Positions 201 through 37,173 of a stretch of 64,000 nt of DNA are shown here, piece by piece (position 1 is the first letter of the stretch; every line of letters begins with the position of its first letter). The DNA is from Squalus acanthias (taxonomy: Eukaryota), in the NCBI GenBank assembly GCA_030390025.1, contig JASTWF010000033.1:374001-438000 (forward strand), given 5' to 3'. The notes under the pieces are model-generated. The model saw only the letters and a program-made list of their open reading frames with translations, was not told the origin of the DNA and did not search any database. Both the position numbers and the translations under genes were made by a program.

Positions 201-597
201 AGATGGCGATCCACAAGTACATCCAAGAGTTTTAACAGATGGATTCCCCGACAGTAGAATAGAGATAAGAAGATAATGTATACACTATGCAATTCATTGA
301 CTGTCAGTGTATTCAATATACATATATCAAGGGCATAATGCAAAGATAACTGGTATTCCCCAGGAACCTGACTCAAATGACAGGAAAGAAAGAGGTCTGT
401 GTCTAAATAACAGCTTGCCATGTCCACTGCACAGACCAGTAGAATTTATAAGCGGTGTAATGTATTTGTTGTTATGGATGACCAGTTAATCAATTCTTGG
501 TGATGTTAATCGAGAGACAATGTTACTGGGACATCGCTTTGCTTCCTTGCATTTAGGATTAGGATCGAAGTAGAGGAATGGGAACTAAGTAAAGCGA

Positions 598-934
598 CAG
601 GAAACTCAATAGAGTGATAGGATCTCAATAGAGCCTTAGGATCTCAATAGAGTGTTAGGATATCAATAGAGCGTTAGGATCTCAATAGAGTGTTAGGATA
701 TCAATAGAGTGAAAGGATGTCAATAGAGTGTTAGGATCTTAATAGAGTGATAGGATATCAACAGAGTGATAGATTCTCAATAGAGTGATAGAATCTCAAT
801 AAGTGATAGGATCTCAATTGAGCGATAGGATCTCAATAGAGTGATAGGATATCAATAGAGTGAAATGATCACAATCGAGTGATAGGATCTCAATAGAGTG
901 ATAGGATCTCAGTAGAGTGATAGGATCTCAATAG
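598..934. repeat. 19-bp minisatellite (GATAGGATCTCAATAGAGT)n, left part
   Basis: Tandem degenerate copies are directly visible. Confidence 0.9.
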
Positions 935-3028
935 AGGATGTAATAGCTGAGCACTTGAAAAACAGTGACAGCATCGGACAAAGTCAACATGGATTTTCAA
1001 AAGGTAAATCGTGCTTGACTAATCTACTGGAATTTTTTGAGGATGTAACTGGGAAAATAGATAAGGGAGAACCAGTAAATGTGGTGTATTTGGACTTTCA
1101 AAAGGCTTTCGATAAGCTCCCGCATAAGAGATTAGCGTGTAAATTTAAGGCACATGGGATTGGGGGCAAGGTATTGACTTGGATAGAGAACTGGTTGGTG
1201 GACAGAAAGCAAAGAGTAGGAATGAATGGGTATTTTTCAGAGTGGCAAGCAGTGACTAGTGGGGTACTGCAGGGATCGGTCCTTGGACCCCAGCTATTCA
1301 CAATATACATTAATGATCTAGATAAGGGAACTAAATGTAACGGCCCAAAAATTAGTGTTGCTACGCGAGAGTACGCACTGTGCACTCTCGCGTATTCTGT
1401 CTCCAATTGCCGGTTTTCTGCATGCACTGCGCATGCGCTGAAAACCGGCACTTGGTGAATTCAAAAGGGGGCGGTTCCTAAGTGAACCGTGTGCGCGCTA
1501 CAGGCTGCGCGCACGCAGTGCACTTAGTGCTTTGAACGCGCAGGTAAGTATGGAAGATTTTACACAAAAAGAAAGGAGGTGTAAGACCCTCTTTTAACAA
1601 GGTAAGTAGTTAATTAAGTATTATTTTGAATTTTTTTTAACAGGTATATCTTTTTTAGAGACTTTAAAGACAGTTAAGTTTATTTTTATAACTTTTTAAA
1701 AGATTTTAATTTTTTTCAAAAATTTAATTTTTTGTTTAAAATGGTTAATTTATTTAACTCTACTTATTTTATTAATGTGATGTTTTTTTTATTTAATTGA
1801 GGTTTAGCTGTTCTTTTGGGGGGTATAGATTCATAGCTTTCACAGCACTTATGTGAAAGCTATGAATGAAAGATGGTGTGCTGCCATTGGCTCTAACAAG
1901 GTCACGTGATGCCACAGCTCTCACGAATTAACTGCGCCTGTGGGATACGGAAGCACTGCCCAGCTGCTGTCCAGGACATCAAGTTCGTGCGAGCTGGGAC
2001 TGAAAAAGCCAGCGCGCAGTGAGAGATCGCGGGGAAGCCTTACCCTCGCACGAAGGCTCCCTCACTAATTTTTGGTCCAATATCTCCAAGTTTGCAGATG
2101 ACACAAAGCTGGGTGGGAGTGTGTGCTGCGACGAGGATACCGAGAAACTCCAGGCTGATTTGGACAGGTTGGGTGACTGGGCTGAAGCGTGGCAGATGCA
2201 ATATAACGTGGATAAATGCGAGGTTATCCACTTTCGTGTCAAAAACGAAAGGCAGACTATTATCTGAATGGCAATAGATTGGAGAAGTGGAAGTGCAACG
2301 AGACCTGGGTGTCCTTGTGCACCAGTCGCTGAAGGTAAGCATGCAGGTGCAGCAGGCGGTGAAGAAGGCAAATGGTATGTTGGCCTTCATAGCGAAAGTG
2401 TTTCAGTATAGGAACGGGGATGTCCTGCTGCAGTTGTACAGGGCCTTGGTGAGACCACACCTTGAGTATTGTGTGCAGTATTGATCGCCTTATCTGAGGA
2501 AGGATGTTCTTGCCATGGGGGGAGTTCAGCGAAGATTCACAAGGCTGATACCTGGGATGGCAGGAATGACATATGAGGAGAGATTGTGTCGATTGGGCTT
2601 ATACTCGCTGGAGTATAGAAGAATGAGAGGGGATCTCATCGAAACATACAACATTCTGACAGGTCTGGAAAAACTAGATGCACGAAGAATGTTCCCGATG
2701 GTCGTAGAGTCCAGAATCAGGGGTCATAATCTAAGGGTAAGGGGTAAGCCATTTAGGACAGAAATGAGGAATAATTTCTTCACCCAGAGAGTGGTGAACC
2801 TGTGGAATTCTCTACCACAGAAGGTAGTTGAGGCCAAGTCATTAAATATATTCAAGAATGATTTAGATATATTTCTTAAAGCTAAAGGTATCAAGGGATA
2901 TGGGGAGAAGGCAGGTACGGGGTACTGAGTTTGGATGATCAGCCATGATCTCATCGAATGGCGGAGCAGGCTCGAGGGGCCGAATGGCCTACTTCTGCTC
3001 CTATCTTCTATGTTTCTATGTTTCTATG
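935..3028 (+). mobile_element. 5'-truncated CR1 LINE (RT region and 3' UTR) inserted in the minisatellite, interrupted by a MITE
   Basis: Motifs [34 protein letters not shown] and RPHLEYC; ends in a (TTCTATGT)n tail; contains frameshifts and stops. Confidence 0.93.
1342..2078. mobile_element. Non-autonomous DNA transposon (MITE), probably PIF/Harbinger-type
   Basis: 16-bp TIRs GGCCCAAAAATTAGTG (1342-1357) and CACTAATTTTTGGTCC (2063-2078), one mismatch. Flanked by AAC/AAT (imperfect 3-bp TSD). Removing it restores CR1 'GTKCN-ISKFADD'. Confidence 0.8.
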
Positions 3029-3345
3029 AGGGATAGGATCTCAATAGAGTGATAGGATCTCTATAGAGTGATAGGATATCAATAGATTGATAAGATATCA
3101 ATAGAGTGAAATTATCTCAATAGAGTGATAGGATCTCAAAAGATTGATAGGATCTCACTAGAGTGATAGGATCTCTATAGAGTGATAGGATATCAATAGA
3201 TTGACAGGATATCAATAGAGTTATAGGATCTCAAAAGAGAGATAGGATAACAATAGAGTGATAGGATCTCAATAGAGTGAAAGGATCTCGATAGAATGAT
3301 AAGATATCATTAGAGCGGTAGGATCTCAATAGGTTATCAATATAA
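3029..3345. repeat. 19-bp minisatellite, continuation (further remnants at ~4045-4225)
   Basis: Same GATAGGATCTCAATAGAGT unit. Confidence 0.9.
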
Positions 3346-3351
3346 TGACCT

Positions 3352-4033
3352 TCTCTCTTTCTTAGGCAGTCCCTCGGAACCGAGGAGGACCTGCTTCCAC
3401 ATTAAAAATGAGTTTGCAGATGACTGATCATTCCAATGCGGGACCTACAGTCTCTGCCACAGGTGGGGCAGACGGTGGTTGAAGGGGCGGGTGGGTGGGG
3501 TGCTTGGGTTGACGTGCGCTCCTTGTGCTGCCTGTGCTTGGCTTCCGCTTGCTCCCGGCGAAGTGACTCGAGGTGTTTGGCGCCTTCCTGGATGCTTCTC
3601 CTCCACTTTGTGCGGCCTTGGGCCAGGGATTCCCAGCTGTCGGTGAGGACGTTACACTTTTTCAAGGAGGCTTTGAGGGTGTCCTTGGAGCGTTTCCTCT
3701 GCCCACCTGGGGCTCTCTTGCCTTGTCGGAGATCCAGGTAGAGCGCTTGTTTTGGGAGTCTCGTATCGGGCATTCGGACAATGTGTCTGTCCATCGGAGC
3801 TGATCGAGCGTGGTCAAAGCTTCGATGCTGGGGATGTTGGCCTGAGCAAGAACACTGACATTGGTGCGCCTATCCTGCAAATGAATTTGCAGGATCTTGC
3901 GGAGGCAGCGTTGGTAGTACCTGTCCAGTGCTTTGAGGTGCCTGCTGTACATGGTCCATGTCTCTGTGGCATACAGGAGGGCGGGTATCACTGCTGCTCT
4001 GTAGACCATGAGCTTAGTGCCGGGTCTGAGGTC
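3352..4033 (-). mobile_element. RTE-clade LINE 3' fragment
   Basis: LLYATETW, RMPDTRLPKQ..GKRAPGGQRKR and a C-terminal CPTCGRDCRSRIG..SH zinc finger, typical of RTE ORF2 ends. Confidence 0.8.
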
Positions 4034-4226
4034 ATAGAATGATCATAGCATGATAGGATCTCAATAGAGTGATAGGAACTCAGGGCTGCATTTGGTTCGC
4101 AAAAGAGCAAGCCTATCTAAATTGATAGTTTGTGTCTCAATATAGCAACAGGATTTTAATTTAAGGATCTTTCTAAAGTGATATGAGCTAAATTGAGTGA
4201 CAGAGCATCCGTAATGCAATAGGATG

Positions 4227-5389
4227 TGTAGACTTCGCAAAATCCCCCAGAAACTCGAACAGAGCCCTGAAGGGAGTGATTTTTGGACTTTTCATACAAG
4301 CTTGGGATGATGGGGCCTAAGTGAAGTGATTTGATGTAAAAACCTAAATATCAGGGTGGAAATACCTGAGAAATCTGATTTTTTAAATCTTATTGTTGGG
4401 AGAGACATTTTTTCACAGACACAAGCTGCGAGGGGCGTGGCCGGTCAGTGAACAGATCAAGCTGTCTGGGAACTGTTTGAGACAATGCAAAACTCACAAA
4501 CACATTCAAATATGGATTCCCAGGGGCAAACAAGATGTTGGAAATCTGAAAACGATTCAATGACAATATAACTTCGATCACACAGTTTCATAGCCATTAT
4601 CCCATCAAAAAAACAATCAACCAGGTATCCAGAGAACAGATTTAAAAGCCCGCCAACAGAAGGACAATAGGGTGAAGATTTGGCGCGTAGATAAGGCCGT
4701 GTTTTAAATCGGAAAACGATTAACACTAATCAAAAACCATCGGAACTGGCAAGCCCACCAAAAACTAGATAATTGGACTAAGCAAGAGTCATTTACAATC
4801 AAAAAGGAATTCGTTTTAGTAAGGGGTATTTGGGCGTGAAAAAGTAACAGTATTATTTGAGATCCTGTGCCATAATTTCTCTCTCTTTCAGACTGACTGA
4901 CGACGCGAACACAGCTCTCTCCCTGCTCCAGCAAAACCTACCACAAGCCACGAGGAAGAAGGCCAGAAGACCAGCACGCAAGAAGAAACCAGAGCGACTG
5001 CCTCAGTGACCATCAGACACCTCGCAGCAACAAGGGCCTTACGGAGTCCTTTTAAACAAAAGACTCTAATATCCTGTTAAGGATTCGTTGGTGAGCATTA
5101 TCCCTGATCTCCTGAAACCAAAAACCTAGCTAGATAGTGGAATCTTTGGGAGGGATAAGGTTTTGTTTGATATATTGTCATTTCCCTCGCTTGTACCGTG
5201 TGTTCCCCGAATCTTTGTTTAAGTAATAAGTTTGTTTCAATTTGTTACCTTTTTCTTTTAATAAAGTAAATGTCTTTCATCAGAACGTGTTTACTGCAAT
5301 TTTGTTCACAACCCCTAAATAAGCCCAAAATCTAGGAACAGGAGGGGTGTTGCAGCGATTCGAACTGCTCACTTAAGATACCCCTTACA
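4227..5389 (+). repeat. 5' LTR (1163 bp)
   Basis: TGTAGACTTCGCAAAATCCCCC...GATACCCCTTACA; homologous to 11261-12493; AATAAA near 5260. Confidence 0.9.
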
Positions 5390-5393
5390 TAAA

Positions 5394-5411
5394 TAGCGAC
5401 CGCGGCAGGAC
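5394..5411 (+). promoter_or_regulatory. Primer-binding site complementary to tRNA-Arg(TCG)
   Basis: TAGCGACCGCGGCAGGAC matches the complement of the vertebrate tRNA-Arg(TCG) 3' end (..GTCCTGCCGCGGTCG-CCA) with one mismatch; 4 nt after the LTR. Confidence 0.8.
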
Positions 5412-5533
5412 ATTGGCGAAAGGGTTGTGAAGCAGTAAATGCTGGTTTTGAGCAGAGAACAAAAATGTAAGAGAGGATGTCATCCTATGTATATTAAAAA
5501 GTAAATTTCACCAAGAATTGGGTCCTCAGGCTG

Positions 5534-7342
5534 TTGCATGCTGAACGTCCTATGGACGCTGCAGCTGCATGGACGGAGAGCAAGGAATACAATAAGTCTG
5601 TGGAGAAAGCCATATGGTTGGTCTGCTCCCAGAAACAAATGCAGCTTATGGGGAAGCGCATTCAGGCTCTCACAGAAGAGCTAAATGAAGAAAGCCAACT
5701 GTCCCGTGCCAGAGCTATAGCAGGGGATAGGTTGTTAGCAGAGCTCGGCACAAAAGATCAGGAACAGTCACAGATGCTGGAGGAACACCGTGCCAGTAAG
5801 GGATACCTCCAGTGTAAGGCCACCGAGGACAAAAGTAGTGAACTGGCATTGCGGGAAGAGAACACCCGCCTTGCCAATCAATTAAGGGAGCTCACAGAGA
5901 AGTTAAACGATGTTCAGGCAGCCTATAGAGTAGCCAGTACAAGGGAATTTGAGGTAGGGGACCACGGCCCCTGTCAGAAGCAGATTGAGAGTCTGAAACT
6001 TTCTCTGTCCAAGGCAAAAGGCATGCTGTGCCTGATAAGCCCGGGTGCGGACCTGGCAGACCTGGAAGAGCAGGGGGAGACTGTTCGACCACCACCTGTG
6101 GCGCCAAGGAGAAGCTTGGTTAGGCATCAAGAGGTGCAGACAATCTCTGAGGTTGACAGGGAGTGCACACCAGCACCTGTGGCGCCGAGTTTTGACTCGG
6201 TCCGGCAGCAGGGAGAGGGGGGCGAACCGATGCAGGAGAAGTCGGAGCCAGGGCCAATGTGCACAGCACGACAGCAAAATTTCGGCCCGCCCGCCGGTGG
6301 TGGAGGTCAGGGACCCCTTCAAAGTCAATTCTTGGCTCCCCACGGTACACAACAGCTTAGGGCTATGGTAAGCCACCTGAGTAAACTTACCCAAAAGGAA
6401 GACCCCTCAGTCCACTTTATGGACCAATCAGCAGCCAATAACGATTGTGACGATGCCGAAATGGCAAAATTGCTGCTGTTCCCTTTCGATGGCAAATTGT
6501 ACCAGTCACTCTCTACTGAGAGCAAGAGAGGACAGACCGGGTATGCTGCCGTAATGGAGGAAGTATTAGAGACCATGGGAATAAATGAGGGAAGTCCTTT
6601 CTCCCGGGTGGAGAAAACAGTGCAGCTCGCAGGGGAGACCCCACAGGCTTTCGCAGACAGGCTGTGGCCGGTGTACAGGGGTGCTTGTAATGGGGCTCTC
6701 GACAGGGCTAACCTTAACAGGGACGAGCTGGCCCACTGGCTCCGTAGCCTTGTGGCAATCAGCTTGCCACGAGTCAAAGCCAAGGCTGAGCTTTGGTTTA
6801 ACTCAAGAGATCCCCGGGTCACCGAGGAGGCAGTGGTCAGGCAACTGACCCTAGCCTACCGGAACGGTAGGGGAGCTGAAGACACCCCACCGAAAGGGAA
6901 GGTGCATGAGATAAAGCCCAGTCAGGATAAGAAGGAGTGGCACCAGGAAGGTGGTAAACCTTCCGACACGAAGCGTAGCTGCTTCGGGTGCGGGAAGACT
7001 GGGCATTGGAGAAAGGACTGTAGGAATCCCTGGAATGATAGCCTAGCAAATAAGTCCCCAACTCCTGCCCCAAAAGTAGAGGCACCGACCTCTTCCCCCA
7101 CACTGGACACAATAGTAGCGGCCATCAGAGTCCTATTTGTTGCCCCAGGGAAGGTAGCTACTGGTGCATTGATCCCATCTGCCCCCCCCCCCCCCGTAAC
7201 GCAGACCTATGACTGGAACCAGCGTAGCCTGTCTACCTGTGTTCCCTGGGATACGATGTTGAGAAGGGGGTGGAGAAAGTGCAGGGGAGATGTTTGGTGG
7301 ACACCGGAGCTGCCAGCACGGTGGTCCATTCAGAAGACCTGA
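5534..7342 (+). CDS. gag: Gag-like polyprotein (N-terminal coiled coil, capsid-like region, CCHC knuckle); start and end probably disrupted
   Basis: 602-aa ORF with MHR-like Q..GETPQAFADRL and CFGCGKTGHWRKDC. The start codon is TTG. A poly-C run at ~7182-7195 probably shifts the natural end. Confidence 0.85.
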   Translation: MHAERPMDAAAAWTESKEYNKSVEKAIWLVCSQKQMQLMGKRIQALTEELNEESQLSRARAIAGDRLLAELGTKDQEQSQMLEEHRASKGYLQCKATEDKSSELALREENTRLANQLRELTEKLNDVQAAYRVASTREFEVGDHGPCQKQIESLKLSLSKAKGMLCLISPGADLADLEEQGETVRPPPVAPRRSLVRHQEVQTISEVDRECTPAPVAPSFDSVRQQGEGGEPMQEKSEPGPMCTARQQNFGPPAGGGGQGPLQSQFLAPHGTQQLRAMVSHLSKLTQKEDPSVHFMDQSAANNDCDDAEMAKLLLFPFDGKLYQSLSTESKRGQTGYAAVMEEVLETMGINEGSPFSRVEKTVQLAGETPQAFADRLWPVYRGACNGALDRANLNRDELAHWLRSLVAISLPRVKAKAELWFNSRDPRVTEEAVVRQLTLAYRNGRGAEDTPPKGKVHEIKPSQDKKEWHQEGGKPSDTKRSCFGCGKTGHWRKDCRNPWNDSLANKSPTPAPKVEAPTSSPTLDTIVAAIRVLFVAPGKVATGALIPSAPPPPVTQTYDWNQRSLSTCVPWDTMLRRGWRKCRGDVWWTPELPARWSIQKT

Positions 7343-7740
7343 CCAATTCACCCAGGTTTAACGGGGTCCCCTACAGTTTAATGGGAAATAAAAGGGAACG
7401 AGCAGGCTGGGGCAATGTCCAAACCTTTGGACACAGATTTAGGATCCCTCCATACCACGTGGGAGGATAACCAAAATGCCGACAAGTTGGCCAAGCAGGG
7501 GGTCAGGGAAGGAGAGTGATGGGATCCCTATAAAGCAGGTCCGGTAGCTGCAATCCGGGACAAGGGAGGCACACAGGGGATAGCTTTGCCCCCGGACTTA
7601 AAGCAGGTCCAAGCCCAGAATCCCGTCTTTAAGGCCGTCCTGGTAAAGAGAGAGAATGGGGAGTCCCTAGAAGTTCCGTTCAGGGCAGAGAACGAGATTT
7701 TTAAACAGGTTCACTGGCAAGCAGCCAGTAACCTGGGGAG
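7213..7740 (+). pseudogene. pol: pol remnants: aspartic protease, RNase H tail, possible integrase N-terminus; RT deleted
   Basis: CLVDTGAASTVV (7270 frame) and DNQNADKLAKQG (~7466-7501). No RT or integrase core motifs. Confidence 0.7.
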
Positions 7741-7841
7741 CCAGTACCAGAAAAATCGGCTGCTGTTAGAACCCCAGAGAGTCCACGGGTGGGAGATTGA
7801 CCAGTGTAAACTGTTTAAACCTAGAAAGGGAACAGCCGAAA

Positions 7842-8423
7842 ATGGTGGACTGCCCCCAAGTTAGAAATCCTCAGCCAGCCGCGGCTGTGGTAGACGCACA
7901 AGCTGCAGCGGGAGGGACAGTGTGCTGTCTCACAGGAGAGGTCACTCCACCGATTATGTGGGACTCAAGCACACCGCCAGTGTCCAGAGCCCTAAGAATG
8001 TCTCCCCGCACACCACAGCAAAGGCTACTGTGGCCACAGGTGTATCTGTTTAGAGGGTCCCACCCAAAGAGGGTTACAACTAGAAAAAGGGCGCCCAAGT
8101 GCAGGGTGCGTTCTAAAGTTGGGGATTCCCAGCCTACAGCCTCCAACATTGAGGGTTTCACAGGAGAAGTAGTACTGGAAGAAGAGAGATAGAAGGGTCC
8201 CCCGCCCGCAGCCTCAGGCTGGGAGGAGCCCACAGATATGAACGAGGGCGCTGCAGCCACACAAAAGGGGGTAGTGTGCTGCAGCACAGGACGCAGCTGG
8301 GATGTTAAGATACCCCCAGCGGTTTTGAGGAAGGCCTTCTGGGTCCGGCGATACAGGCCGCACTACACCCAGGTGTACAAGCCATCCAGAGGCCACATAC
8401 GGCAGAGACTAAACAGGATTTAA
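7842..8423 (+). pseudogene. Orphan accessory ORF between pol and env, broken by one in-frame TAG (8190-8192)
   Basis: ORFs 7797-8192 and 8238-8423 are in the same frame and the linker between them is open. Confidence 0.4.
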
Positions 8424-8590
8424 CCTGGCCGTACGGAGATGGGCGGCAAATGTACAGAATTTTCGGTTTTAAGTAATTGCAGTTTTGGTAGTTATGGGTT
8501 ATCAAAGTTTAGTTATTTGTGGAGTTTTTAAGTTTAAGGGCTTGAATAATTATCCAGCCAGATAACCTTTCTGGGACATGGATATAAGTT

Positions 8591-10880
8591 TTGTGTGTGC
8601 CCCGACAGAAAGGACTTCGGAATGACAAGGTTTCTGCTCCTGCTCCCCTGGTAGGGGTGAGCATCGGTGACCGAGGTGACGTAGAGGACTCCCACATCTA
8701 TGGGTATTCAGGAGTGAGAGCACCAGTCGTCACCGCAGTGGGTGGCGAGCGGGGAGTGGAGGAGCTCGCCATCTACTTCCACGAGGGAAGGTGGCCAGGA
8801 TGGTTGGGGTCCAACTCTACTAAATACTCCAACCAACCCGGGTTCACGTACGGGGAGGCCTCCCTCCCATGCCCCAGAATACAGGTCGTTGCCACAAGGG
8901 TCAGTGTCACCGAGGGGAAGCGTGTGTGCCTTACCTGTAAGGGACGAATTCCCTTGAATAGGTGGTGGTGGCACAGGAAGCTGAGCAGGGACGCAGGGGA
9001 CCATACAGCCGACTGGGAAAGATTAGGGAACGACACCTACCGGACAATCACAGGGACCCAAGGAGGAGTGAGTGTTTGTTGGGATAAGTGGTGGGAGTCG
9101 GAACAGGGAGTCTATGTTTGTATGTGGGGATCAGAGGAAGCCTGCCCCACAGGGGTATCCATCATCTTCTCCAGCCAATGGCAAGATGCCGGGGAGGGGA
9201 TAGGGTGGGATTCTAGCCTGCATGGGTGTGTGGTCCCACACATTCCGGTCCCAGTTAATGCCACTGAACTCGTGGCACACACCCGAAAGCCCCAACCCAC
9301 GACCCAGGTACCGAAAACCCTGGAAGAAAAGTGCCCTACCACCACCAAATGAGCAGGGAATGGGTTAGTCCTAGTACCAACCGAAAAGGTACTATACCAG
9401 GGGGTACACTATGCAGTAACTCCAGTAATATTAAACCTTACCGAGGTATACTTACCTGAGTGGTGTCCTAAGGAGACGGAGCAGCTGTACCAGGCCCTGC
9501 TAAAGGAAATGTTTAGGAAATTTTACGAATTAGATTTTGCCAATATAGACAAAGTAGAGCTATACAGAATACACCCTGAGAACCCTATGGGCACGGGTAG
9601 AAAAAGAAGGGAAGCCTGGAATGATGTCTTCACAGCCTATAGTACAGGGTCCTCTGTAATAAATAGCCTGGATGACATGGAATTACAGACACAGATAAAT
9701 GGTTTAAAAACCCAGTTAAGAAAGATCCTGAAGGATGGGAACACAGTGGTAGGCTCAGAGCTACATGAGGACCAAGCTATGACGGTTCATTTAAAGGAAA
9801 TTATTGCAGAATTGGAAAGGCATGCCAAAACAGTAAATGCACTCATACGGGAGGATAGGAATGCATCGGATCAGGCTGCACAGAATGAGGTGTGTGTGCT
9901 GTACGGGGCATGGTTGCTGGGCGAGGGCCGTAGCAACCTGGTGGATTTAAAGCAAGGTTTAGTCCCCTCCTGGATCAGCAACAAGCACCTTGCAGCCCTC
10001 CACCCGTTTAGTAATTCGCTGAGCACATGCCAATTTCATCTAGCCTCTGAAGCCTACCAAGTCCCAATAGATTGTGGGCGTTCAAATCACACTATCATGG
10101 GGATAGTAGTGAGAATGCCGGTCATGAGTGGGACAGCCCGACCCGTACCGGTATACAGGGTGGAGAACATTGGAGTCATTAAAGGGGGTGCACACATCCG
10201 TTTTACAGCGGTCCTACCTTATGTCATAAAGTGGGAGCACGCCATGACAGGTATTGACCTAGACGGGTGCCGGAGCCGGGGTTCACACATCATACTGTGT
10301 CCCCAGCACTTGAACGCCTATTCGAAACCACAATGCGGGTTCAGAGCTGCTGGCGCACGACCTATCAATTGTACCATGGAGGTGATGGCACACGGCCATG
10401 TTTCCCCACAGGTAGCATATATAGGGGGTGGGACATATTGTGTCACCACGGGTGCGTCCCACTACCAGCATGGACACTTCTGGTGTCCGCTAAGTGACAG
10501 CAGTTTCTGTTTTAAACGAGAGGCAGAAGTTCAAGTGGCCCAGGAACAGATTGTCCCCATTCCTGAACCCTCCACTGTTCACCTCACTGTAACAGAAAAC
10601 ATCACCAACCTGCAAAAGTATGTGACTTACTTTGGATATAAAATTCCCCTTCTACCCGAACATCTTACCAACCTACTTAAAGCTGTAGAGATTTCACAAA
10701 AACTTTCCTACACCCTGGAACAGAAAACAGTTGAATTAGGGGCAGAGATTTTGGATATAGTAGTTCCAACCTGCTGGGATATTTTCGAGAATATAGAGGT
10801 GCCTTCCTGGATCAGGATGGCTTCCCATCTTTTGGTGGTCTGCTAGCTCGGGATATTTCTCTACCTGCTGTGAACAAGAT
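8591..10880 (+). pseudogene. env: env: Ig-like domain + class I F-type fusion glycoprotein; in-frame stops at 9350-9352 and 10844-10846
   Basis: ORFs 8591-9352 and 9509-10846 share a frame with an open linker. Features: VSVTEGKRVCLTC..W..GVYVC Ig motif, RKRR furin site, heptad repeat, Cys-rich region, TM-like end. Confidence 0.8.
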
Positions 10881-11249
10881 GAAGGGGAAGGGACGGGGAG
10901 CTCCGCTCCAGACACGATGGGACTTGGGAAGTGCATCAAAATAAAGGCTATGGCCAGGGATGGAACGAAACTTGAATTTTTGTCTTTTAATTAAAAAAAT
11001 TTGTATGTGTGTTGTGTCATTTTTATGATGTGTATGATGTGTTTTTTCCAAGCTGTGCAGGGGTGACCGTCCCTCTCGGTGCTTGGATGTGAAATAAAGA
11101 TTGATTCTTACCTGTATGTCCCTGAAACACCACTTTCAAAAGGGGAATGTATGTTTGGGTTTTTAGTTTAGGTAATACAGGGGAAGGTTGGTTTTCGGGG
11201 ATCGGAATTTTTGCTCACCTGTTAATTATACTAATTCAGTTTTAGTATC

Positions 11250-11260
11250 AAAGTGGGGGA
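11250..11260 (+). promoter_or_regulatory. Polypurine tract
   Basis: AAAGTGGGGGA abutting the TG of the 3' LTR. Confidence 0.8.
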
Positions 11261-12493
11261 TGTAGGCTTCGCAAAATCCCCCAGAAACTCGAACAGAGCC
11301 CGAAAGGGAGTAATTTTGGTCTTTTCATACAAACTTGGGATGATGGGTCCTAAGTGAAGTGATTTGATGTAAAAACCTAAAGATCAGGGAAGAAAAAACC
11401 TGAGGAAACTGACTTTTTGAATCTTACTGTTGGGAGAGACACCTTTCACAGACACAAGCTGCGAGGGGCGTGGCCAGGCAGTGAACAAATCAAGCTGTCT
11501 GGGAATTGTTTACACTACAAATCCTACCAAGGTGCAAGAGACAAAGCAAAAACTCACAAACACATTCAAATATGAATCCCCAGGGGCAAACAAGATGCTG
11601 GAAAACTAAAAACGATTCCTGACGATAAAACTTCCAGCACACAGTTTCATAGCCATCATCCCATCAAAAAATACTAATCAACCAGGTAGCCACTGAACAG
11701 ATTTAAAAGCCCGCCAAAAGATATAGGACAATAGGGGGAGATTTGGCGCGTATATAAGTCTGTGTTTAAATCGGAAAACGATCAAGACATGTTTAACACT
11801 GAGCAAAAGCCATCGGAACTGGCAAGCCCGCCAAAACTAGACAATGGACGAAGCAAGGTTCATTTGCAACCAAAAGGAATCCGTTTTAGTAAGGGTTTTT
11901 TGGGCGCAAAAAAGAAACAGTGTAATTTGAAAGTCTGTGCCATAATTTCTCTCTCTTTCGGACTGCCTGACCACGCGGACACAGCTCTCTCCCTGCTCCA
12001 GCAAAACCTACCACAAGCCACGAGGAAGAAGGCCAGAAAAAAGACCAGCACGCAAGAAGAAACCAGAGCGACTGCCTCAGTGACCATCGGACACCTCGCA
12101 GCAACAAGGGCCTTACAGAGTCTTTTAAACAAAAGACTCTAAAATCCTGTCAAGGATTCGTTGGTGAGCATTATCCCTGATCTCCTGAAAATAAAAACCT
12201 AGCAAGATAGTGGGATCTTTGGGAGGGATAAGGTTTTGTTTGATTTTTTGTCATTTCCCTCGCTTGTAACGTGTGTTCCCCGAATCTGTGTTTAATAATA
12301 AGTGTGTTTCAAGTTTGTTACCTTTTTTCTTTTAACAAAGTAAAATTCTTTCATCAGAAGCTGTCGTTTACTGCAATTTTGTTCACAACCCCTAAATAAG
12401 TCCAAAGTCTAGGAACCGGAGGGGTGTGGGAGCGATTCGAACCGCTCACTGTGTCAGAAAGCGAAGGCTGACCCCATTAAGATACCCCTTGCA
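11261..12493 (+). repeat. 3' LTR (1233 bp)
   Basis: TGTAGGCTTCGCAAAATCCCCC...GATACCCCTTGCA; differs from the 5' LTR by many substitutions and several indels. Confidence 0.9.
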
Positions 12494-13018
12494 ATCTCAT
12501 GCCATCATGTAACTGAGCCCCACACAGATGGATGGGCCAAGGCTCCATTCCAGGCCTGTGGTAGGTTCGTTGTTCTCATTCGGTTGCTACTGACCCCCAT
12601 ATAGAGCAGAAAGGGCAGAGTCCCATCATTGGCCTGTGCTCTGGTGTATCTGGTTCCCAGGGCCTCCCAGTGAAGCGACCACGTGTATATCTGATCTCCA
12701 CATTGATGAACAAATACAACAGCAAAAGAACTCGTGGGAAGATTCCGACAGTTGTGAGAAACCCAGATACCATGTTAATATCTCACCGTCACCATTAGTT
12801 GATGAATCGGTCTAATGGCTCAAAGCGTGTTTTCAAATCAATTTGTTTAACGGATTTTCTTTCAGCGACTATTTCTATGTTCCGACAATAAATGTTACAT
12901 TCTTTAATTTGGACAAGTGAACAGAGACTGGACAGTTGCTGTCTTGCTCCCTGTGACCTGAGGTTTTATCTGGGTAACTTCTGGCTTTAGTATATGTTGT
13001 CAGCTGTGGTCCAAAAAG

Positions 13019-13093
13019 GTCTCTGTGGCGCAATCGGTTAGCCCGTTCAGCTATTAACCGCAAAGGTTAGTAGTTCGAATCCACCCAAAAACA
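13019..13093 (+). pseudogene. tRNA-Asn pseudogene (anticodon now ATT)
   Basis: GTCTCTGTGGCGCAATCGGTTAGC..GTTCGAATCCACCC matches tRNA-Asn(GTT); the acceptor stem is broken. Confidence 0.85.
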
Positions 13094-13374
13094 GTGTTTT
13101 AACTTTTCCAGGTTTTCAAAATGTATATTTTGGCTGCAAGATCATGGAATGAACTGTGTCACTGGGTACAATGTCGGTAAGTATGAGATCATCCACTGGG
13201 ATCGGAGAAAGCCATTTCGTAACATTTTGTTAATGGTGACAGACCAATAGAAACAGGAGGAGGCCATTCAGCTTCTCAGCCCTGTTCCGTCATTCAATTA
13301 GATCCGGGATAATCTGTATCTCAACTGCATTGGCCCGCTTTGGTTCCATATCCAGCTTCACCATTTTGGAATGG

Positions 13375-20233: not shown

Positions 20234-21135
20234 TTATTTTATAATCTTAGAAAGTACAGTGAAGGGATATTTCACCCCATTCTTCAGCTCCTCTCTGAAC
20301 TTACTCTGGGTCACGGCATAAATAAAAGTGTTTGTGCAGCAACTCAGGAGCTGGAGCATAAACCCAAGTTCTTGTACAATGTTTAACATTGCACCACTAT
20401 CCAACCAGTACATTAAAACAATTCTAGAATACATCGTGGCCACCAGGAGCACAGCCCACAGAAGGATAAAATTCCCCGAGATCACAAAAAGTACAGTAAT
20501 TGATTTTCTTCTGTTTTTAGACTCTGGGTCACTGGGACTCTCCCCGCTGACCCGGTCCCGAAGTCTCTTGCGAATTCTGATGGTCACTAAAATGTGTCTG
20601 ACGGTTAAAACATTGAGCATCAGAATCAGAATAAATGGTCCACACGGGGTCAAAATATAATGTAGCAATTCAATTGCTGCCCATACTGGTGAAAGCATAA
20701 CGCTGAAGGTCATACCGCAGAACCAGGGAAGTCTCATTAGCATATAGTTGCCTGTAAGCATAAAGTACCAGAAAATGTTCTTCACACAGAACAACACAGT
20801 CATTGTTCCAATAACCACCGCCGCCGATTTCTCGGTGCAATATTTGTTTTTTAGCTTCTGGCAACAAATGGCCACAAATCGATCAAAGGTGAAAGAGACG
20901 GTGAACCAGACAGAACAGTCTGTGGCTGCATAAAGTAGGACTGCGTGGATATTACACACGGGAATGTCGTTAAGAAAGCGAAACTTTGTATTATAAACAA
21001 CGGGAATGTGCCTCAGTATCAGATCGATGATAACGACCAGTAAATCCGCCGCTGCCATGGCCAACAGGTACCGAGTGACACATTTGGAGAGACCACACTT
21101 TCCCCGAGACAGGGTCACAATCGTCACTAAGTTAA
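20234..21135 (-). CDS. GPR139-like class A orphan GPCR, exon 2
   Basis: TM1-TM7 with YLLAMAAADLLV, FTFDRFVAIC and CCTNTFIY. Acceptor cccttccttacAG precedes 21135. Open to the stop. Confidence 0.9.
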
Positions 21136-21509
21136 CTGTAAGGAAGGGGGGGAAAGGGAAAATACACATCAGGATTGGAGCTGAAATATCAGTGTCGTGG
21201 ATCAATGGATGTCATTTACTGAGAGCTCACAACATCCCGTGATGGAATCCATCATGACAGAACTTCATGTTAGAGCTAAGACTTCAAGTCAAGTGTCAGT
21301 AATGATTTGTGAATTCAAGGACTGATCAAATTGGTTAAATAAACATGAAAATAACACGGTTATATTTATTCAGAAATGTCCAACAATAGAATGTGGTTTG
21401 CCCTAATGAACAAACAGTAAACACACTGACTGGTGCCAACAAAACCTGATGGTGCTGACAGAAGGTCCCACGGTCAAATCTGGGCCTAGTCAGTTACAAT
21501 TGGAATCAA

Positions 21510-24965: not shown

Positions 24966-25871
24966 GATGATTTTGTAATGGGAGAATGTCCATTCGTATT
25001 TCAAAGCTATTCGGATGGGCAGCCACTATAAAGGGGCTGATGATGTAACTAACGATTCGATCTGCCACCTTGTGTTTGAGAAAGGATCTGAATGGAAGTG
25101 AAACAATGCTAATCTGGCGCTGTCCACATGACTGCGAGAACTGAATAGGTTTCAAATTAATAGAGGGAATAAAAAACGATAAAATGATAAAGGAATCTAC
25201 AACGCACCTTACTCCATTTACAATCAATTGGAATTAAAATCAGTTGGAATGATTTATCGCCAATTGCAACTCTGTATCATTAATTTTACCCAACAGATGT
25301 AAAAAAATATCCTTGAAGCCATGAACATATTCCTGATTGGATTTGATTCGATCTTTACTGTTTAACAATCAATCACCGCCTGTCCGGAGCACACACAGAT
25401 AATCGGGGCGGGCAACAGGCCCCTCACCAATAATAGAACCCGCCAGATTCACCTTCCTTTAAAATCAATGGAACGACTGTGGCTGGTTTTGTAAATCCTT
25501 CTCGCCCACTTCTTGTTCCACCGGCCTCCTCATTCGCTGTTTAACGCCCAGAGGGTAAAGTGTAAAATCTACTCCCAGACTCAGACCGGACTGCAGATTG
25601 TAAGATATTCATTAAATAAATCACCCAATGACACTGTCGGGGAACAAGTTACTTTCAGACACAAAGCAAGAGGAATAAACTGAATACAATGATTTTTTGG
25701 ATATGCAGACTTGCATAATGAACACAGTGTTTACAGTTAAATATCGTTTCCAGTATGAAATATTAATATGGTCACTTACAAGGAACACCGACAGCAACTG
25801 GGATTTGACAGTTACAGGCAGGAATACAATTAAAATGGTTACAGGATTAATACCTGGAGATAGATACTTAC

Positions 25872-25956
25872 GAGGGACACCAAAAACAGCGAGGGTGGGA
25901 TAATAAATCGTCTGTACACGTAGAATTGCACGCAATGCCGTAACATATTGTCTCAT
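25872..25956 (-). CDS. GPR139-like GPCR, exon 1
   Basis: MRQYVTALRAILRVQTIYYPTLAVFGVP followed by a GTAAGT donor at 25871. The phase-1 join gives 85+902=987 nt, i.e. 328 aa. Confidence 0.85.
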
Positions 25957-26934
25957 GGTGGACTCCGATCCGTTTTTCCAACTTGTGCTGAACGCTGATC
26001 CCGGGTTGTTCTGCAGACCAAGCTCCGAGAGACACTTTGGGTTAACACATTGAGCGAAGGCCCTTATGTAAGGCGAGATAAATCTCCACTGACATAATTA
26101 GGGCGCAAGGAGACTGACATTAATTACAGTGACTGAACAAACAGATTCAGTTAATCTCTTTTACACAACGTGTTGCAATATCATAAACTATATTTAGCCC
26201 GATATTGCACAGATGTAAAGTGAATCTCCCCAAAGCTCAGGGTTAATCAGACTATGTGGAATAGTCAGTATGACCGCATTGGGTGAAGGGAGAACAGGTT
26301 TAGTTACAGGTTTCTGATGATCTCTGTGATAATGAGGTTCTGTAATTTCAGAGAATTTCTATCCAATTCTCAGTGTGGACTTTAACCTCAGTCAGTGAAA
26401 GCAAACCATCTGGTTGAGCCCCGGGGAATATCCTTTGCTCATTTCTGAACATCCATGGCAAACATTGTCCTATTTCCATTGCCCTTAAAATGCAGACACA
26501 CTCCTGGCGACCGCAAAGAATGTGTGCTCATGACCCGGAATCTTTCCCAGAAAAACACAACCATTGACGCTGTACTTAGTCAGATATGGCCATGTACCTG
26601 CTATAAACATTGAAACATTCCTCAGGACTCCCCACTAATATTGATACACCTCCAGGAACCGGTATAACAAGATCCCAAGAGCCCCAACCCTGTAGATGGT
26701 GATGTAATCATTGGTACCCGAATAAACATGTACAATTGCATGGAACTTACTGGAGTTATGGCACAATTCCTGGGAACCCATTCGCAAATACTTACTATTC
26801 CACATAACCCCTGCAAAGAACTCACTGTCAGGAGTTCTTCCACTTATTTTCTCACTTCCAGTTGCAGAGTGCAAATAAATCACATTTCCAGGGATCGCCA
26901 TTAGACAAAGAGCTAATCCCTAAATTGTTACCGG

Positions 26935-29643: not shown

Positions 29644-30478
29644 TACATAGATACATAGATACATAGAAGATAAGAGCAGGAGTAGGCCATCCGGCCCTTC
29701 AATGAGATCATGGCTGATCCTCCAATTCAGTATCCCGTCCCCGCCTTCTCTCCGTAACCCTTAACCCCTTTTGCCTGTAGAAATATATCTAATTCCCTCT
29801 TAAATATATTTAATGAGCTGGCGTACACTGCCCTCTGTGGCAATGAGTTCCACAGGTTCACCACCCTCTGAGTGAAGAAATTCCTCCTCATTTCTGTCCT
29901 AAATGGTTTAGCCCTTATCCTTAACTTATGTCCTCTAGTTCTGTTCTCACCCGCCAAGGGAAACATTCCTTCTGCATCTAGTCTGTCTAGACCTGTCAGA
30001 ATTCTATACACTTCTATGAGGTCCCCTCTCAATCTTCTAAACTCCAGTGTGTACATCCCTAAACTACATAGTCTCTCCTCATAGGTCAATCCCGCCATTC
30101 CTGGTATCAGCCTGGTGAATCGCCGCTGCACCCCCTCCATGGCAAGAACATCTTTCCTCAGATGTGGCGACCAAAACTGTACACAGTACTCGAGGTGTGG
30201 TCTCACCAGTGCCCTGTACAGCTGCAGCAAGGTAGCCCTGTTCCTGTATTCCAACCCTTTTGCTATGAAGGCCAGCATACCGTTTGCCTTCTTGACCGCC
30301 TGTTGCACCTGCATGCTCGCCTTCAGTGACTGGTGTACAAGAACACCCAGGTCTCTCTGTACTTCCCCCTCTCCCAATTTCTTGCCATTTAAATAATAAT
30401 TTGCCCTCCCGTTCCTGCACCCAAGGTGGATAACTTCGCACTTGTCCACATTATAGTGCATCTGCCATTTATCCGCCC
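29644..30478 (-). mobile_element. Young 5'-truncated CR1, same subfamily as the intact element at 40933-45939
   Basis: The open 244-aa ORF is nearly identical to the C-terminus of ORF2 42972-45839; (CTATGTAT)n tail. Confidence 0.95.
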
Positions 30479-32359: not shown

Positions 32360-33519
32360 TCTTAATGCATGAAACATTCAGAATAAGGTAAACAAATTAA
32401 CAGCGCAAATCGATGTAAACGGATATGATATAATTGAGATTACGGAGACATGGCTGCAGGGTGACCAAGGCTGGGAACTGAATATCCAAGGATATTCGAT
32501 ATGATGGAAGGACAGTCAAAAAGGAAAAGGTGGTGGGTAGCGTTGTTAGTAAAGGATGAAATCAGAGCAATAGTGAGAAAGGATATTGGCCCAGAAAATC
32601 AAGATGCAGAACTTGTCGAGGTGGAGCTAAGAAGCACCAAGGGGCAGAAAACATCGGTGGGAGTTGTCTGTAGGCCTCCAAACAGTAGTGGTAATTAAGG
32701 GGATGGCATCAAACAGGAAATTGGAGATGCATGTAACAAGGGTACTACAGTAATCATGGGTGAGTTTAATCTACATATTGACTGGCCAAACCAAATTAGC
32801 AATAATACTGTGGAGGATGAATTCCTGGAGTGTGTCCGAGATGGGTTTTTTAGACCAGCACGTTGAGGAGCCAACTAGGGAACAGGCTATCCTAGATTGG
32901 GTATTGTGCAATGCGAAGCGATTAATTAATAATCCTGTTGTGCAGAATCCTTTAGGGAAGAGTGACCATAGCATAATAGAATTCTTCATTAAGATGGAAA
33001 GTGAAGAATTCCAATCCGTAACTCGGGTCCTAACTCTAAACAAAGGAAACTACGAAGGTATGAGGAGTGAGTTGGCTATGATAGATTGGGGAGCTTCATT
33101 AAAATGCATGATGGTGGATAGGCAATGGCTACCATTTAAGGAACGAATGCATGAATTGCAGCTGGTATACATTTCTTTCTGGCGCAAAAACGCAAAAGGA
33201 AATGCAGTATAACCATAGCAAACAAAAAAATTAAGGATAGTATTAGATCCAAAGAGGAATCATATCAATTTGACAGAAAAAATAGCAAGCCTGAGGATTG
33301 GGAGCAGTTTAGAGTTCAGAAAAAAGAACCAAGAGATTGATTAAGAAGCAATATAAGAGTGTACTGCAAAAGCTTCTACAAGCATCTAAAAAGAAAAAGA
33401 TTAGTGAAGACAAATGTAGGGCCCTTACAGTCAGAAACGGGAGAATTTATAATGCGGAACAAGGAAATGGCTGAGCAATTAAACAGAAACTTTGGTTCTG
33501 TCTTCAAGGAAGAGGACAC
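32360..33519 (+). mobile_element. Decayed CR1, endonuclease half (left of the ERV)
   Basis: ITETWLQG, RPPNS, PTREQAILDWVLCN, SDH and FGSVFKEEDT. Confidence 0.9.
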
Positions 33520-33997
33520 TGTTGGAGTAAAAATTATAGGGCTTAAAGAATGTAATATAAAAAGTAAATTCGTAAATACAGAATGGTTTCGCTGACACAG
33601 TGCGATGAGTAATGTCTGTGGTCAACAAGTGTTTGTGCGAGGTACAACGGTTACACTTGAGAACCAATCACCGCATGACCAGCCAGTCCGACTAGACAAA
33701 GCTGACACAACATTTTGATGTTTATAGTTTCGATAGGGAAGTAACATTTTTCAGCTTAAAGTGCAGTTTATAATTAGAAGTCTGTTGGTGGGGGAACGTG
33801 ATTGGGTGAAGACATTTGTATGTAATGCATTGCGTTTCCGACCCTATAAAGTATAAAAGAAGTTCCGATATCACTGTAAGGTCGAGAGTGAATTCACTAG
33901 ACCGCGGGGTCTATGGCTCTTCTCCCAGTGCCTCTGTTAAATAAACTGTGATCTTCTGCTTTGAGACAGACTCGAGTGAATTAATTTTTCACCAACA
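33520..33997 (+). repeat. 5' LTR (478 bp)
   Basis: Direct repeat of 38727-39206; TATAAA and AATAAA present. Confidence 0.95.
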
Positions 33998-33999
33998 AT

Positions 34000-34017
34000 T
34001 GGCGTAGTCGGCAGGAT
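34000..34017 (+). promoter_or_regulatory. PBS complementary to tRNA-Ser(AGA/TGA)
   Basis: TGGCGTAGTCGGCAGGAT is the complement of ..ATCCTGCCGACTACG-CCA. Confidence 0.9.
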
Positions 34018-34588
34018 GCTCTGGAACTGAAAGACCACCCGCACCGGTGAACCCGGACGAGAAGTCAATTTTGACCATCCAGAAATTGAGTCACCTGGAA
34101 AGGCGGAGTGACAGTGCCGTAGCATCACGAATCAAGTAAAGTCTGCGAGAGGTAGGAGAACACAGTTGTGAGAGTGCGGATCGCAAGTACTAAAGGGAAC
34201 ACTGTGTAGCGATAAATGTCGCGAAGGAATGAGTGAGTGACGGAATGACTCGGACAAGGAGGGTGCCGGTCTCTTACACCTAGCCTGAGTCTGACTTAAG
34301 AGGACATAGTCCCACGTGATGGCCAGGATCAAGTAGGGGTAGAGGCTCCAAAACACCCTGGGATCGTGAAGTCAGCAAATATATATGTGTGTTGTGACCG
34401 ATTAACCGCTTGAAGGTCTTTAAATTATCAAGAACAAGCCCGAGTAGAGGAACTCAGCATTTGGTAAGACTGTAAGTTGGACTACAAATGGCGTCGGGGA
34501 AATAAATAGAATGGGGACCAATGGGGTCCCTTACTAGGTTCTATGCAGACGACCGGAAGGGTTTAGTTGATAAGATGACGAAGGAAGG

Positions 34589-35548
34589 GTGGGACCCGCT
34601 CCAGAATCCGAAAGTACAAAGAGAGTGGTAGAGGGTCAAAAACAGAAAAAGACAAAAAAGGTGGGGGTGATACTAGGAAACCAATTAGTCGCTTTAATTA
34701 ACAAGGTGCCGCGACTCCACACTAGACTTGCAAGTAAACGTGAAAGAATTCTGGAATTCGAACAAGTGTCAGTATTATACAAAGTTGGCCAGACGGTCCT
34801 TGATGGGTACCGGCTGGACAAAACAGAACTATGGAACGAAAGGCGGGCACATTTGTGCGCCTCGGTAAAAGTCCAGGGCTCCGAAAATGAGGACGAGATG
34901 CCACCTCCTTACACCCCAGAGGCATCAGCCCCTTCCATGGAAGACAGTGATGACGAAAACTTAGAGAAAGAAAAAAAGAACCCAAACGTAATCAAGGCAG
35001 CCCCTTTAAAAAGAGGGGGAACGGTACAAAATCCCACAGCCAAGTACCAAGCTTTTAGCCCCTTAGAAAAACAAACATTATTGAAAGATTTGGGAACACT
35101 GAAGCCCCATAGCACAAATGGGGAATTTTGGAGAAATCTCGAGGAGATGTGGGATATACACGACCTCCATCCTCGGGACATCCAACAGTTAGTATGGGCT
35201 AAATGCCCGGCTGATAAATGGAGGGAGGTGGATAAACAAAACGGCCACCAAGACGGTGGCTGGACCGGCCGTATCGCCTTAATTGCGTACAAGGCGGCCC
35301 AACTCGCGGCCTACAACCCCTTTAAAACAGCGGTCCAGGCGGCCTTTGGAGGATCCTCACCAAATTGGGGACGTATAATGATGATAAAACAGCGGAAAGT
35401 GGGCAGCAGTAGTGATTATGGCGAACGATTGTTCGTCGTATACCAGGAATCATCGGGACAAGCAAACCACCAGATGACAGACCAGCCCTTTATTCAAATG
35501 TTTAAGGACGGGTTGTCCCAATCCCACCAAGCGATATTAAAAATGTGA
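34589..35548 (+). pseudogene. gag: ERV gag (ends frameshifted)
   Basis: PPPY late domain; MHR-like IKQRK..SSSDYGERL; FIQMFKDGL. Confidence 0.8.
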
Positions 35549-35669
35549 ATAGTGGCGGCGAATACATATGATGCGGTGGTCCAGTGGGCGTGTCACATAG
35601 ATGCTAAAGAGGGGATCGTATAAAACACCAGCAGAGGATAGAGGCCCTCTTGGAAGCCGCAAAGGCCCC

Positions 35670-36927: not shown

Positions 36928-36945
36928 ACCTTCGCCAGCTTAAAA

Positions 36946-37173
36946 ATGGTTACAAGAGAGCATGTGCCTTTTGTGGGAAGTGAAGAACACGTTAGACAAT
37001 TCAAAGAATGGGAATGGGCGCTAGTACGGACGATGGTATGGACAATATGCATTGTCATAATGGGATACACTATGGGATGCATCGTAAAGCATGTATGGGA
37101 ACAATCCCATCGACTCCAACCGGTCGAGCAGGAGGAGGGAAACCAAATGATTATTATCGAGGAACCAGCATAA
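36946..37173 (+). CDS. Small putative single-TM accessory ORF between pol and env
   Basis: 75 aa, ATG start, hydrophobic WALVRTMVWTICIVIMGYTMGCIV. Confidence 0.35.
   Translation: MVTREHVPFVGSEEHVRQFKEWEWALVRTMVWTICIVIMGYTMGCIVKHVWEQSHRLQPVEQEEGNQMIIIEEPA

What the first reader, a model, noticed from the sequence alone, without database searches (positions are those of the whole stretch)
4227..12493. Candidate lokiretrovirus-like provirus in a probable shark genome, surviving as an RT-less gag+env element
Seen: ~1.2-kb LTRs, PBS-Arg(TCG), PPT, a coiled-coil/CCHC Gag and env. Only ~500 bp of pol remains (protease DTGA, RNase H NQNADKLA). Inference: a non-autonomous derivative of a loki-like lineage. 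From memory, the originally reported host range covered lampreys, bony fishes, amphibians and reptiles but not chondrichthyans; this needs verifying. The visibly diverged LTRs point to an old insertion.
Basis: partly seen in the sequence, partly recalled or inferred. Interest (0 to 1): 0.7.

Follow-up and report, generated by a model that had tools for sequence, protein, structure and literature searches.

The report
Dead, enzyme-stripped shark-type provirus
This is a long-dead copy of a retrovirus family common in sharks and skates that lost most of its enzyme gene and carries an unusual envelope resembling paramyxovirus fusion proteins, but the evidence leans towards kinship with snakehead retrovirus rather than the 'lokiretroviruses' it was taken for.

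Summary
The provirus is real: LTRs 4227-5389 and 11261-12493 (92% identical, K2P 0.085, no exact target-site duplication), PBS, gag, env, PPT. RT is absent. More pol survives than reported: protease, RNase H end, both ends of integrase and probably a pol tail (7228-8422), joined at three deletions. One deletion is clearly, and one borderline, shared by diverged contigs in other runs, which suggests a trans-mobilised RT-less subfamily. Gag and env are both broken here, so nothing 'survives' as coding. Close relatives are named from sharks and skates. Lokiretrovirus membership rests on RT, which I could not test. Indirect signs lean against it: the family occurs in three species where the loki screen found none; no teleost is among 24 env hits looked up; RNase H and RT-end motifs of relatives and the Gag layout resemble snakehead retrovirus (SnRV). 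For it: F-like env (Atlas lead only) and a loki-like integrase. My odds: SnRV-related 0.55, distinct mosaic lineage 0.27, true loki 0.15. SnRV-like ERVs in chondrichthyans are published; an F-like env on them I did not find in print. The scan has noted this family several times on other DNA of this genome.

The parts
4227..5389 (+). 5' LTR, 1163 bp, TG...CA
   Evidence: contigs of three runs join the LTR end to position 5390-5392 (tables 5 and 5c)
5394..5411 (+). primer-binding site, tRNA-Arg type by recall (one mismatch); 12 of 18 identical to the PBS-position 18-mer of SnRV
   Evidence: tRNA assignment recalled, not tested
5477..7207 (+). gag: N-terminal coiled coil, capsid with MHR-like motif, single CCHC knuckle (6977-7024); in-frame stop at 5495; 3' end blurred by a poly-C run
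   Evidence: relatives P0001 (45%) and P0002 (39-40%)
7228..7455 (+). protease remnant (DTGA at 7300-7311), frameshifted; 3' end is the first deletion junction (about 7455-7463)
   Evidence: junction position inferred
7463..7516 (+). last residues of RNase H (NQNADKLA 7469-7492); RT, tether and most of RNase H deleted upstream
   Evidence: P0011 residues 93 onward
7520..7700 (+). RNase H-integrase linker and integrase start, ending at the second junction (7685-7706); zinc finger and catalytic core (about 280 aa) missing
7694..7864 (+). integrase C-terminal remnant (69% to P0011 450-484) with a third junction at about 7796-7801 that drops about 50 aa of the C-terminal domain
7842..8422 (+). 193-codon frame with one stop (8190) and an internal duplication; probably the C-terminal tail of pol, cut off by a frameshift near 7824 private to this copy; accessory gene not excluded
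   Evidence: searches (no family; repeat score reached by 0 of 500 shuffles), 46 table 4, 123
8622..10882 (+). env: signal-peptide-like start, frameshift near 8645, Ig-like segment 8873-9121, RKRR 9599-9610, F-like ectodomain, membrane anchor near 10811-10875; four stops; no CX6CC motif
11250..11260 (+). polypurine tract
11261..12493 (+). 3' LTR, 1233 bp, with 26-, 11- and 27-bp segments absent from the 5' LTR
   Evidence: five contigs of run X6 begin the LTR here with unlike upstream flanks (table 7)

Best explanation
A dead copy of an RT-less deletion derivative of a chondrichthyan endogenous retrovirus family that most likely belongs with the SnRV-related canonical retroviruses (clade Huo), and whose env is of the paramyxovirus-F-like type with an Ig-like head. 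Shown: layout, three pol deletions, broken gag and env, many related copies in several organisms. Inferred: the deletions arose in a parent genome (template jumps in reverse transcription are the usual cause), the deleted RNA kept LTRs, PBS and PPT and was copied and integrated by the enzymes of a full-length helper, and this copy then decayed neutrally, about 4% per LTR (19 to 190 million years on the two rates used in PMC4422223).
For: RT-less layout. Shared junctions: contig X1-4 (7715-7882, laid whole, 14 other letters) spans junction 3 with about 80 letters each side; X7-18 (7468-7731, laid whole, 21 other letters) spans junction 2 with 25-46 letters on the short side. Decay: 319-447 differing places over 7811 bases in the four runs (table 1), about half the LTR distance of 0.085. 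Against loki: env relatives occur in Scyliorhinus torazame (66%), Rhincodon typus (56%) and Chiloscyllium punctatum, three species whose genomes the loki screen scored negative; of 36 env hits, 24 were looked up: 19 chondrichthyan, 3 amphibian, 2 unnamed, 0 teleost, though loki is reported from 120 teleosts. All 24 loki RNase H rows read K-x-x-G-H; relative P0011 reads KVKAH, a word found in the supplement only in SnRV and Xen-1 rows. The RT-end word NPKK of P0022 was found only in SnRV rows. A degenerate RNase H motif of P0011 matched one contig in the viral collection, SnRV (the wildcards were chosen after seeing the SnRV row). SnRV is the top RNase H match among the fetched loci for P0011 and P0022. 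SnRV Gag is 618 aa with coiled coil and one knuckle at residue 537, family Gags 619-628 aa with the knuckle at 537-550 (PMC2717909). Two distant env relatives align to SnRV env above all 200 shuffles.
Against: No RT of the family was obtained apart from a 50-aa degraded end in a gene model (P0022), whose best matches are gamma- and epsilon-type loci before SnRV. The integrase of P0011 is closer to loki: hand counts 95 and 93 of 226 against two loki rows versus 84 of 226 for SnRV and at most 85 for any fetched reference, with the loki/gypsy zinc-finger spacing H-x6-H, not SnRV's. Trees of integrase and RNase H did not join P0011 to SnRV and held no loki rows. The RNase H margin of SnRV over foamy loci is small (49.3 versus 47.0 bits). 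Capsid-only Gag profile gave no SnRV hit, and the shark-only env profile did not separate SnRV env from shuffles; 5 of 7 env pairwise tests, the window's own included, were not above all shuffles. Junction 1 was not shown to be shared. P0011 is a relative at 45-69%, not the parent.
Confidence: 0.55

Rival explanations
1. A distinct mosaic lineage of sharks, skates and frogs: its RT is neither loki nor close to SnRV (or is canonical), but it shares integrase and F-type env ancestry with loki/Odin through domain exchange.
For: Conflict between domains: loki-like integrase, SnRV-like RNase H and Gag, F-like env; unresolved long branches; PMC7947760 reports repeated RNase H and integrase replacement.
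Against: Screens of 1,768 vertebrate genomes reported only canonical retroviruses and loki (PMC9040795). The window's second ERV, which has an ordinary gamma-type env, is as loki-like over a 67-aa stretch of integrase core (34 versus 35 of 67, hand count), so core identity discriminates poorly.
Confidence: 0.27
2. A true lokiretrovirus, extending the host range to chondrichthyans.
For: F-like env by Atlas features (0.93, 209 of 256 shared, PF00523), RXKR site, no CX6CC; integrase identity and zinc-finger spacing; relative named NYNRIN-like; coiled-coil Gag as in zebrafish BHIKHARI (PMC12067270); env relatives in Xenopus tropicalis, a loki host.
Against: Family present in three species screened negative; no teleost env hit among 24 looked up; RNase H lacks the signature of 24 of 24 loki rows; RT-end motif canonical; post-cleavage peptide is polar, unlike the one loki env passage seen. 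Atlas recognition 1831 is below the tool's 2300 mark.
Confidence: 0.15
3. Whatever its clade, the RT-less state belongs to this one locus (deletions after integration, or a chimera of two proviruses, which would explain unequal LTRs and the missing target-site duplication), not to a mobile subfamily.
For: No exact target-site duplication; transitions not above transversions and three long LTR indels; junction 1 not bridged, junction 2 borderline; bridging contigs could be orthologues.
Against: Bridging contigs differ from this copy by about 8%, more than the 3' flank differs in the two runs where a flank contig is listed (2 of 310 and 9 of 284 letters; other runs than the bridging ones); junctions 2 and 3 keep the reading frame; internal drift matches half the LTR distance.
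Confidence: 0.3

Closest known systems
Snakehead retrovirus (SnRV) and related ERVs (clade Huo, PMC6001957; CmiERV lineage I of elephant shark, PMC4422223)
   Same: Gag size and layout (coiled coil, one knuckle, no N-terminal glycine); RNase H words; RT-end word NPKK in a relative; PBS 12 of 18 identical; weak transitive env homology; already known from a chondrichthyan.
   Different: Integrase zinc-finger spacing and identity are not SnRV-like; env is shorter, has an Ig-like head and a short tail, and does not align directly to SnRV env; no 3'ORF seen; pol deleted.
Lokiretroviruses (PMC7947760, PMC9040795), incl. zebrafish BHIKHARI (PMC12067270)
   Same: F-like env with RXKR site; integrase 41-42% identical with the same zinc-finger spacing; coiled-coil Gag; BHIKHARI are non-autonomous.
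   Different: RNase H signature absent; CCHC knuckle present (BHIKHARI-1 is described with a glycine-rich end); env kept whereas BHIKHARI-2 has neither pol nor env; no smc gene; no teleost env relatives found; published screen negative in the same host species.
Envelope-bearing Ty3/gypsy errantiviruses with F-type env (PMC13524379)
   Same: F-type env; gypsy-like capsid features in the Atlas; H-x6-H zinc finger.
   Different: That study found no intact vertebrate element homologous to them; the relative P0011 has a retroviral-type RNase H (PF00075) before integrase and its best solved-structure match is foamy integrase.
ERVs amplified by complementation in trans (mechanism as summarised in PMC10435555)
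   Same: cis signals kept, enzymes lost.
   Different: Here gag and env are both kept while RT and integrase core are lost; helper not identified.

Membership tests
Lokiretrovirus | RT groups with the loki clade | not testable with these tools
   RT deleted here; no full RT of a relative and no loki sequence could be fetched
Lokiretrovirus | Env similar to Mononegavirales F (signal, RXKR, fusion peptide, coiled coil, TM) | tested here: inconclusive
   Atlas top hits PF00523 at 0.93 but recognition below the tool's mark; no PF00523 hit for the window or 32 relatives, one Baculo_F hit E 0.0011; model unusable, pLDDT 36; RKRR and anchor present
Lokiretrovirus | RNase H of the loki/foamy group (conserved K-x-x-G-H in 24 of 24 rows) | tested here: not met
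   by eye on relative P0011 against supplement rows; proxy only
Lokiretrovirus | Integrase close to loki/CGIN1 | tested here: inconclusive
   41-42% by hand versus at most 38%; control ERV equally close in the core; no tree with loki rows
Lokiretrovirus | Tether plus RNase H | not testable with these tools
   region deleted; P0011 starts inside RNase H
SnRV-related ERVs (clade Huo) | RT groups with SnRV | not testable with these tools
   only a 50-aa RT end in P0022; motif shared with SnRV but scores favour gamma/epsilon loci
SnRV-related ERVs (clade Huo) | Gag with coiled coil, MHR, single knuckle, no myristoylation glycine | tested here: met
   SnRV description in PMC2717909; sequence similarity confined to coil and knuckle
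SnRV-related ERVs (clade Huo) | RNase H nearest SnRV | tested here: inconclusive
   top match and unique motif hit but small margin and unresolved tree
SnRV-related ERVs (clade Huo) | pol read through an amber stop in the gag frame | not tested
   gag-pol junction of this copy is disturbed by a poly-C run; no intact junction fetched
Class I ERVs with gamma-type env | ISD and CX6CC in TM (TLV_coat) | tested here: not met
   no CX6CC, no TLV_coat hit; the second ERV of the window does hit TLV_coat
Foamy viruses | Gag without CCHC knuckle | tested here: not met
   knuckle present; criterion from PMC2717909
Non-autonomous ERV subfamily | same deletions at several loci | tested here: inconclusive
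   1 of 3 junctions clearly bridged, 1 borderline, 1 not shown in the 32 contig pieces listed of 8040

The most novel reading that the evidence does not exclude
The family is a shark-and-frog retrovirus lineage with canonical (SnRV-type) Gag, RT and RNase H but a loki-type integrase and an Ig-headed F-type envelope that is also distantly homologous to SnRV env. F-type env would then not be a lokiretrovirus hallmark but an old envelope shared across the loki/canonical split, and RT-less gag+env subfamilies would spread it in trans in shark germlines.
Probability: 0.3. Interest if true: 0.7.

Novelty: new variant of a known kind. Interest (0 to 1): 0.38.

Why it matters
The published account of envelope origins treats F-like env as peculiar to lokiretroviruses and absent from canonical retroviruses (PMC9040795). 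A chondrichthyan family that joins an F-like env to SnRV-like core genes would make the four scenarios of PMC7947760 testable with one RT tree and one env fold. As a host-range extension it matters only if RT proves loki (0.15). This locus itself is a decayed copy and adds mainly a map of the deletion junctions.

Tried and rejected
No whole genome is held, so copies could not be counted in the host. Single-sequence models of env and of P0011 had pLDDT 36 and 33; fold searches with them gave no match at E 0.001 and are not used. Solved-structure searches with env, three relatives of four tried beyond it and SnRV env found no fusion protein; two gave weak antibody-domain hits. Scans for full-length relatives found nothing useful in viral contigs, metagenomes (one weak locus that did not match the element) or prokaryote genomes. 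Loki motifs found no loki locus. No listed run holds half of the element's words and no RNA holder is on record: no statement on expression or on host species. Summed contig depth over the element exceeds the flank 10- to 100-fold in X1 and X9, but the tool says it is no copy number. 'NYNRIN-like' is an automatic name and was not taken as a test. The accessory-gene reading of 7842-8422 was dropped in favour of pol tail. PBS text searches in two supplements were uninformative; the supplement search of PMC9040795 for chondrichthyan names found none, so its Fig. 1B host table was not seen. The loki supplement is cut, so an SnRV integrase row may lie beyond it; bioRxiv supplements were closed. Searches behind 'not found in print'.
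Full report
Observation. The element runs from 4227 to 12493. The LTRs are 1163 and 1233 bp, begin TG and end CA, and align with 1061 matches, 92 mismatches and 22 gaps, K2P 0.085. Contigs of public runs confirm both inner LTR boundaries and show unlike flanks before the LTR start, so this is a multi-locus family. There is no exact target-site duplication. A PBS-like 18-mer lies at 5394-5411 and a purine tract at 11250-11260. The Arg label is my recall, not a tested result.

Gag. The frame from the ATG at 5477 has a stop at 5495 and then runs open past 7200. It has one CCHC knuckle, retroelement-capsid features in the Atlas (0.91) and two unnamed relatives of 619 and 628 aa at 45% and 40%.

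Pol. A search with the read-through remnant found one longer protein, an RNase H-integrase gene model of Heptranchias perlo (P0011, E 2e-26). Against it the window holds the RNase H end, the integrase start (residues 93 to about 170), then residues 450-484, then the last integrase motif. With the protease upstream this gives three deletions: RT, tether and most RNase H; integrase zinc finger and core; about 50 aa of the C-terminal domain. RT is absent. The 193-codon frame at 7842-8422 has no family match. All four runs differ from the window by a frameshift near 7824, and P0011 continues into a short similar word, so it is probably the pol tail.

Env. It has a signal-like start at 8622, a frameshift near 8645 that contigs of all four runs lack, a weak Ig match (E 0.0046, below cut-off), RKRR at 9599, no CX6CC, an anchor near 10811-10875 and four stops. 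The Atlas ranks paramyxovirus F clusters first (0.93; 10 of 10 best family hits in one clan) but recognition is 1831, below 2300. Pfam and PDB sequence searches do not confirm F and the model failed. I hold F-likeness at about 0.8.

Host. Env relatives at 56-77% are named from Pristiophorus, Rhinoraja, Scyliorhinus and Rhincodon. Of 36 hits in the full HMMER search, 24 were looked up: 19 chondrichthyan, 3 amphibian, 2 unnamed; 12 were not looked up. No host gene was tested, so shark versus skate is open.

Loki or not. The loki paper screened six chondrichthyan genomes and scored none (PMC7947760; main text parts 1-3 of 4, supplement searches and parts 76, 77, 81, 82 read). Three of those species carry this env family, and the whale-shark model P0022 joins an RT end, RNase H, integrase start and env; that the protein records come from the very assemblies screened is my inference. 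All 24 loki RNase H rows have K-x-x-G-H, whereas P0011 has KVKAH like SnRV and Xen-1, and NPKK of P0022 was found only in SnRV rows. A P0011 motif pulled one viral contig, 10,688 nt with a 205-codon 3' ORF overlapping env, which fits SnRV as described in PMC12193657 (passages). SnRV is the best RNase H match among the fetched loci, narrowly, and its Gag has the same size and layout (PMC2717909, passages). Against this, the integrase of P0011 is 41-42% identical to two loki rows by hand count, 37% to SnRV and at most 38% to any fetched reference, and has loki-type zinc-finger spacing. A control weakens this: the window's other ERV, with a gamma-type env, is as loki-like over 67 core residues. 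Trees without loki rows left P0011 unresolved (36 and 23 rows, duplicate locus L056 and loci without a hit left out). Env homology to SnRV is weak and transitive: 2 of 7 pairwise tests beat all 200 shuffles, the window's own env did not; the broad profile scored 6.8 bits against a best shuffle of 2.8, the shark-only profile gave no signal. Verdict: SnRV-related 0.55, mosaic 0.27, loki 0.15, other 0.03.

Subfamily or single accident. Four of 22 listed runs, one each from four coded organisms, were laid on 5390-13200. Among 32 listed pieces of 8040, one spans junction 3 well and one spans junction 2 marginally, each about 92% identical to this copy; junction 1 is not bridged. I put a trans-mobilised RT-less subfamily at about 0.65. 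Template switching as the cause and helper enzymes as the motor are inferred from general retrovirology (complementation in trans as summarised in PMC10435555, passages).

Age. The runs differ from this copy at 319-447 places in 7811 bases, about half the LTR distance, which fits neutral decay after insertion. With the mammalian and the ten-fold lower shark rate used in PMC4422223 (part 1 of 2 read) the insertion is 19 to 190 million years old; the range is too wide to mean more than 'old'.

What is known. SnRV-like ERVs are published for elephant shark (PMC4422223) and clade Huo spans all vertebrate groups (PMC6001957, passages). Non-autonomous loki derivatives are published for zebrafish (PMC12067270, passages). 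PMC9040795 (parts 1-2 of 4) states that F-like env is not found in canonical retroviruses. I found no paper on an F-like env in shark ERVs or in SnRV. Also seen in passages only and not decisive: PMC13524379, PMC11089739, PMC12690878, PMC8278194, bioRxiv 2021.11.23.469661; PMC12440569 part 1 of 5. Earlier notes of this scan describe the same kind of element on other DNA of this genome and split between SnRV and loki; they sent me to test SnRV and are not counted as support.

Verdict. Real, dead, RT-less provirus of an abundant chondrichthyan family; headline claim of a shark lokiretrovirus not shown and disfavoured; the lasting interest is the family's mixed ancestry, which needs RT from full-length copies.

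Noticed in passing
window 33518-39207: A second, unrelated degraded ERV: LTRs of about 480 bp at 93% identity, 4-bp target-site duplication, integrase nearest epsilon-type loci, gamma-type env (TLV_coat E 6e-7); no RT match found, so it may be RT-less too.
   Followed up: partly
window about 45900-64000: Three near-identical tandem units of 6.2 kb, each with a vault RNA gene (62.5 bits) and a tRNA-like sequence; a vault RNA array or an assembly duplication.
   Followed up: no
window 41947-45839: Intact-looking CR1-type LINE with a GDSL/esterase ORF1 and a 988-aa ORF2; a fragment at 29694-30478 is 99% identical, so it is young.
   Followed up: no
window 20234-21211 and 25621-26097, minus strand: Probable two-exon rhodopsin-family GPCR (7tm_1 E 4e-17); could fix the host taxon.
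   Followed up: no
P0007, P0014, P0015, P0037: Shark gene models that splice pieces of this env family onto host genes (Niban 1-like, cadherin-related 5-like, fbxo15, a GPCR-like tail): annotation artefacts or exonisation.
   Followed up: no
P0042 cluster (Mantella aurantiaca): Sixteen cluster members, most of the 15 listed being full-length 677-aa env relatives, suggest a young expansion of this env type in a frog.
   Followed up: no
window 530-1009, 2965-3407 and 4040-4075: 19-bp tandem repeat arrays and LINE fragments lie just upstream of the 5' LTR.
   Followed up: no
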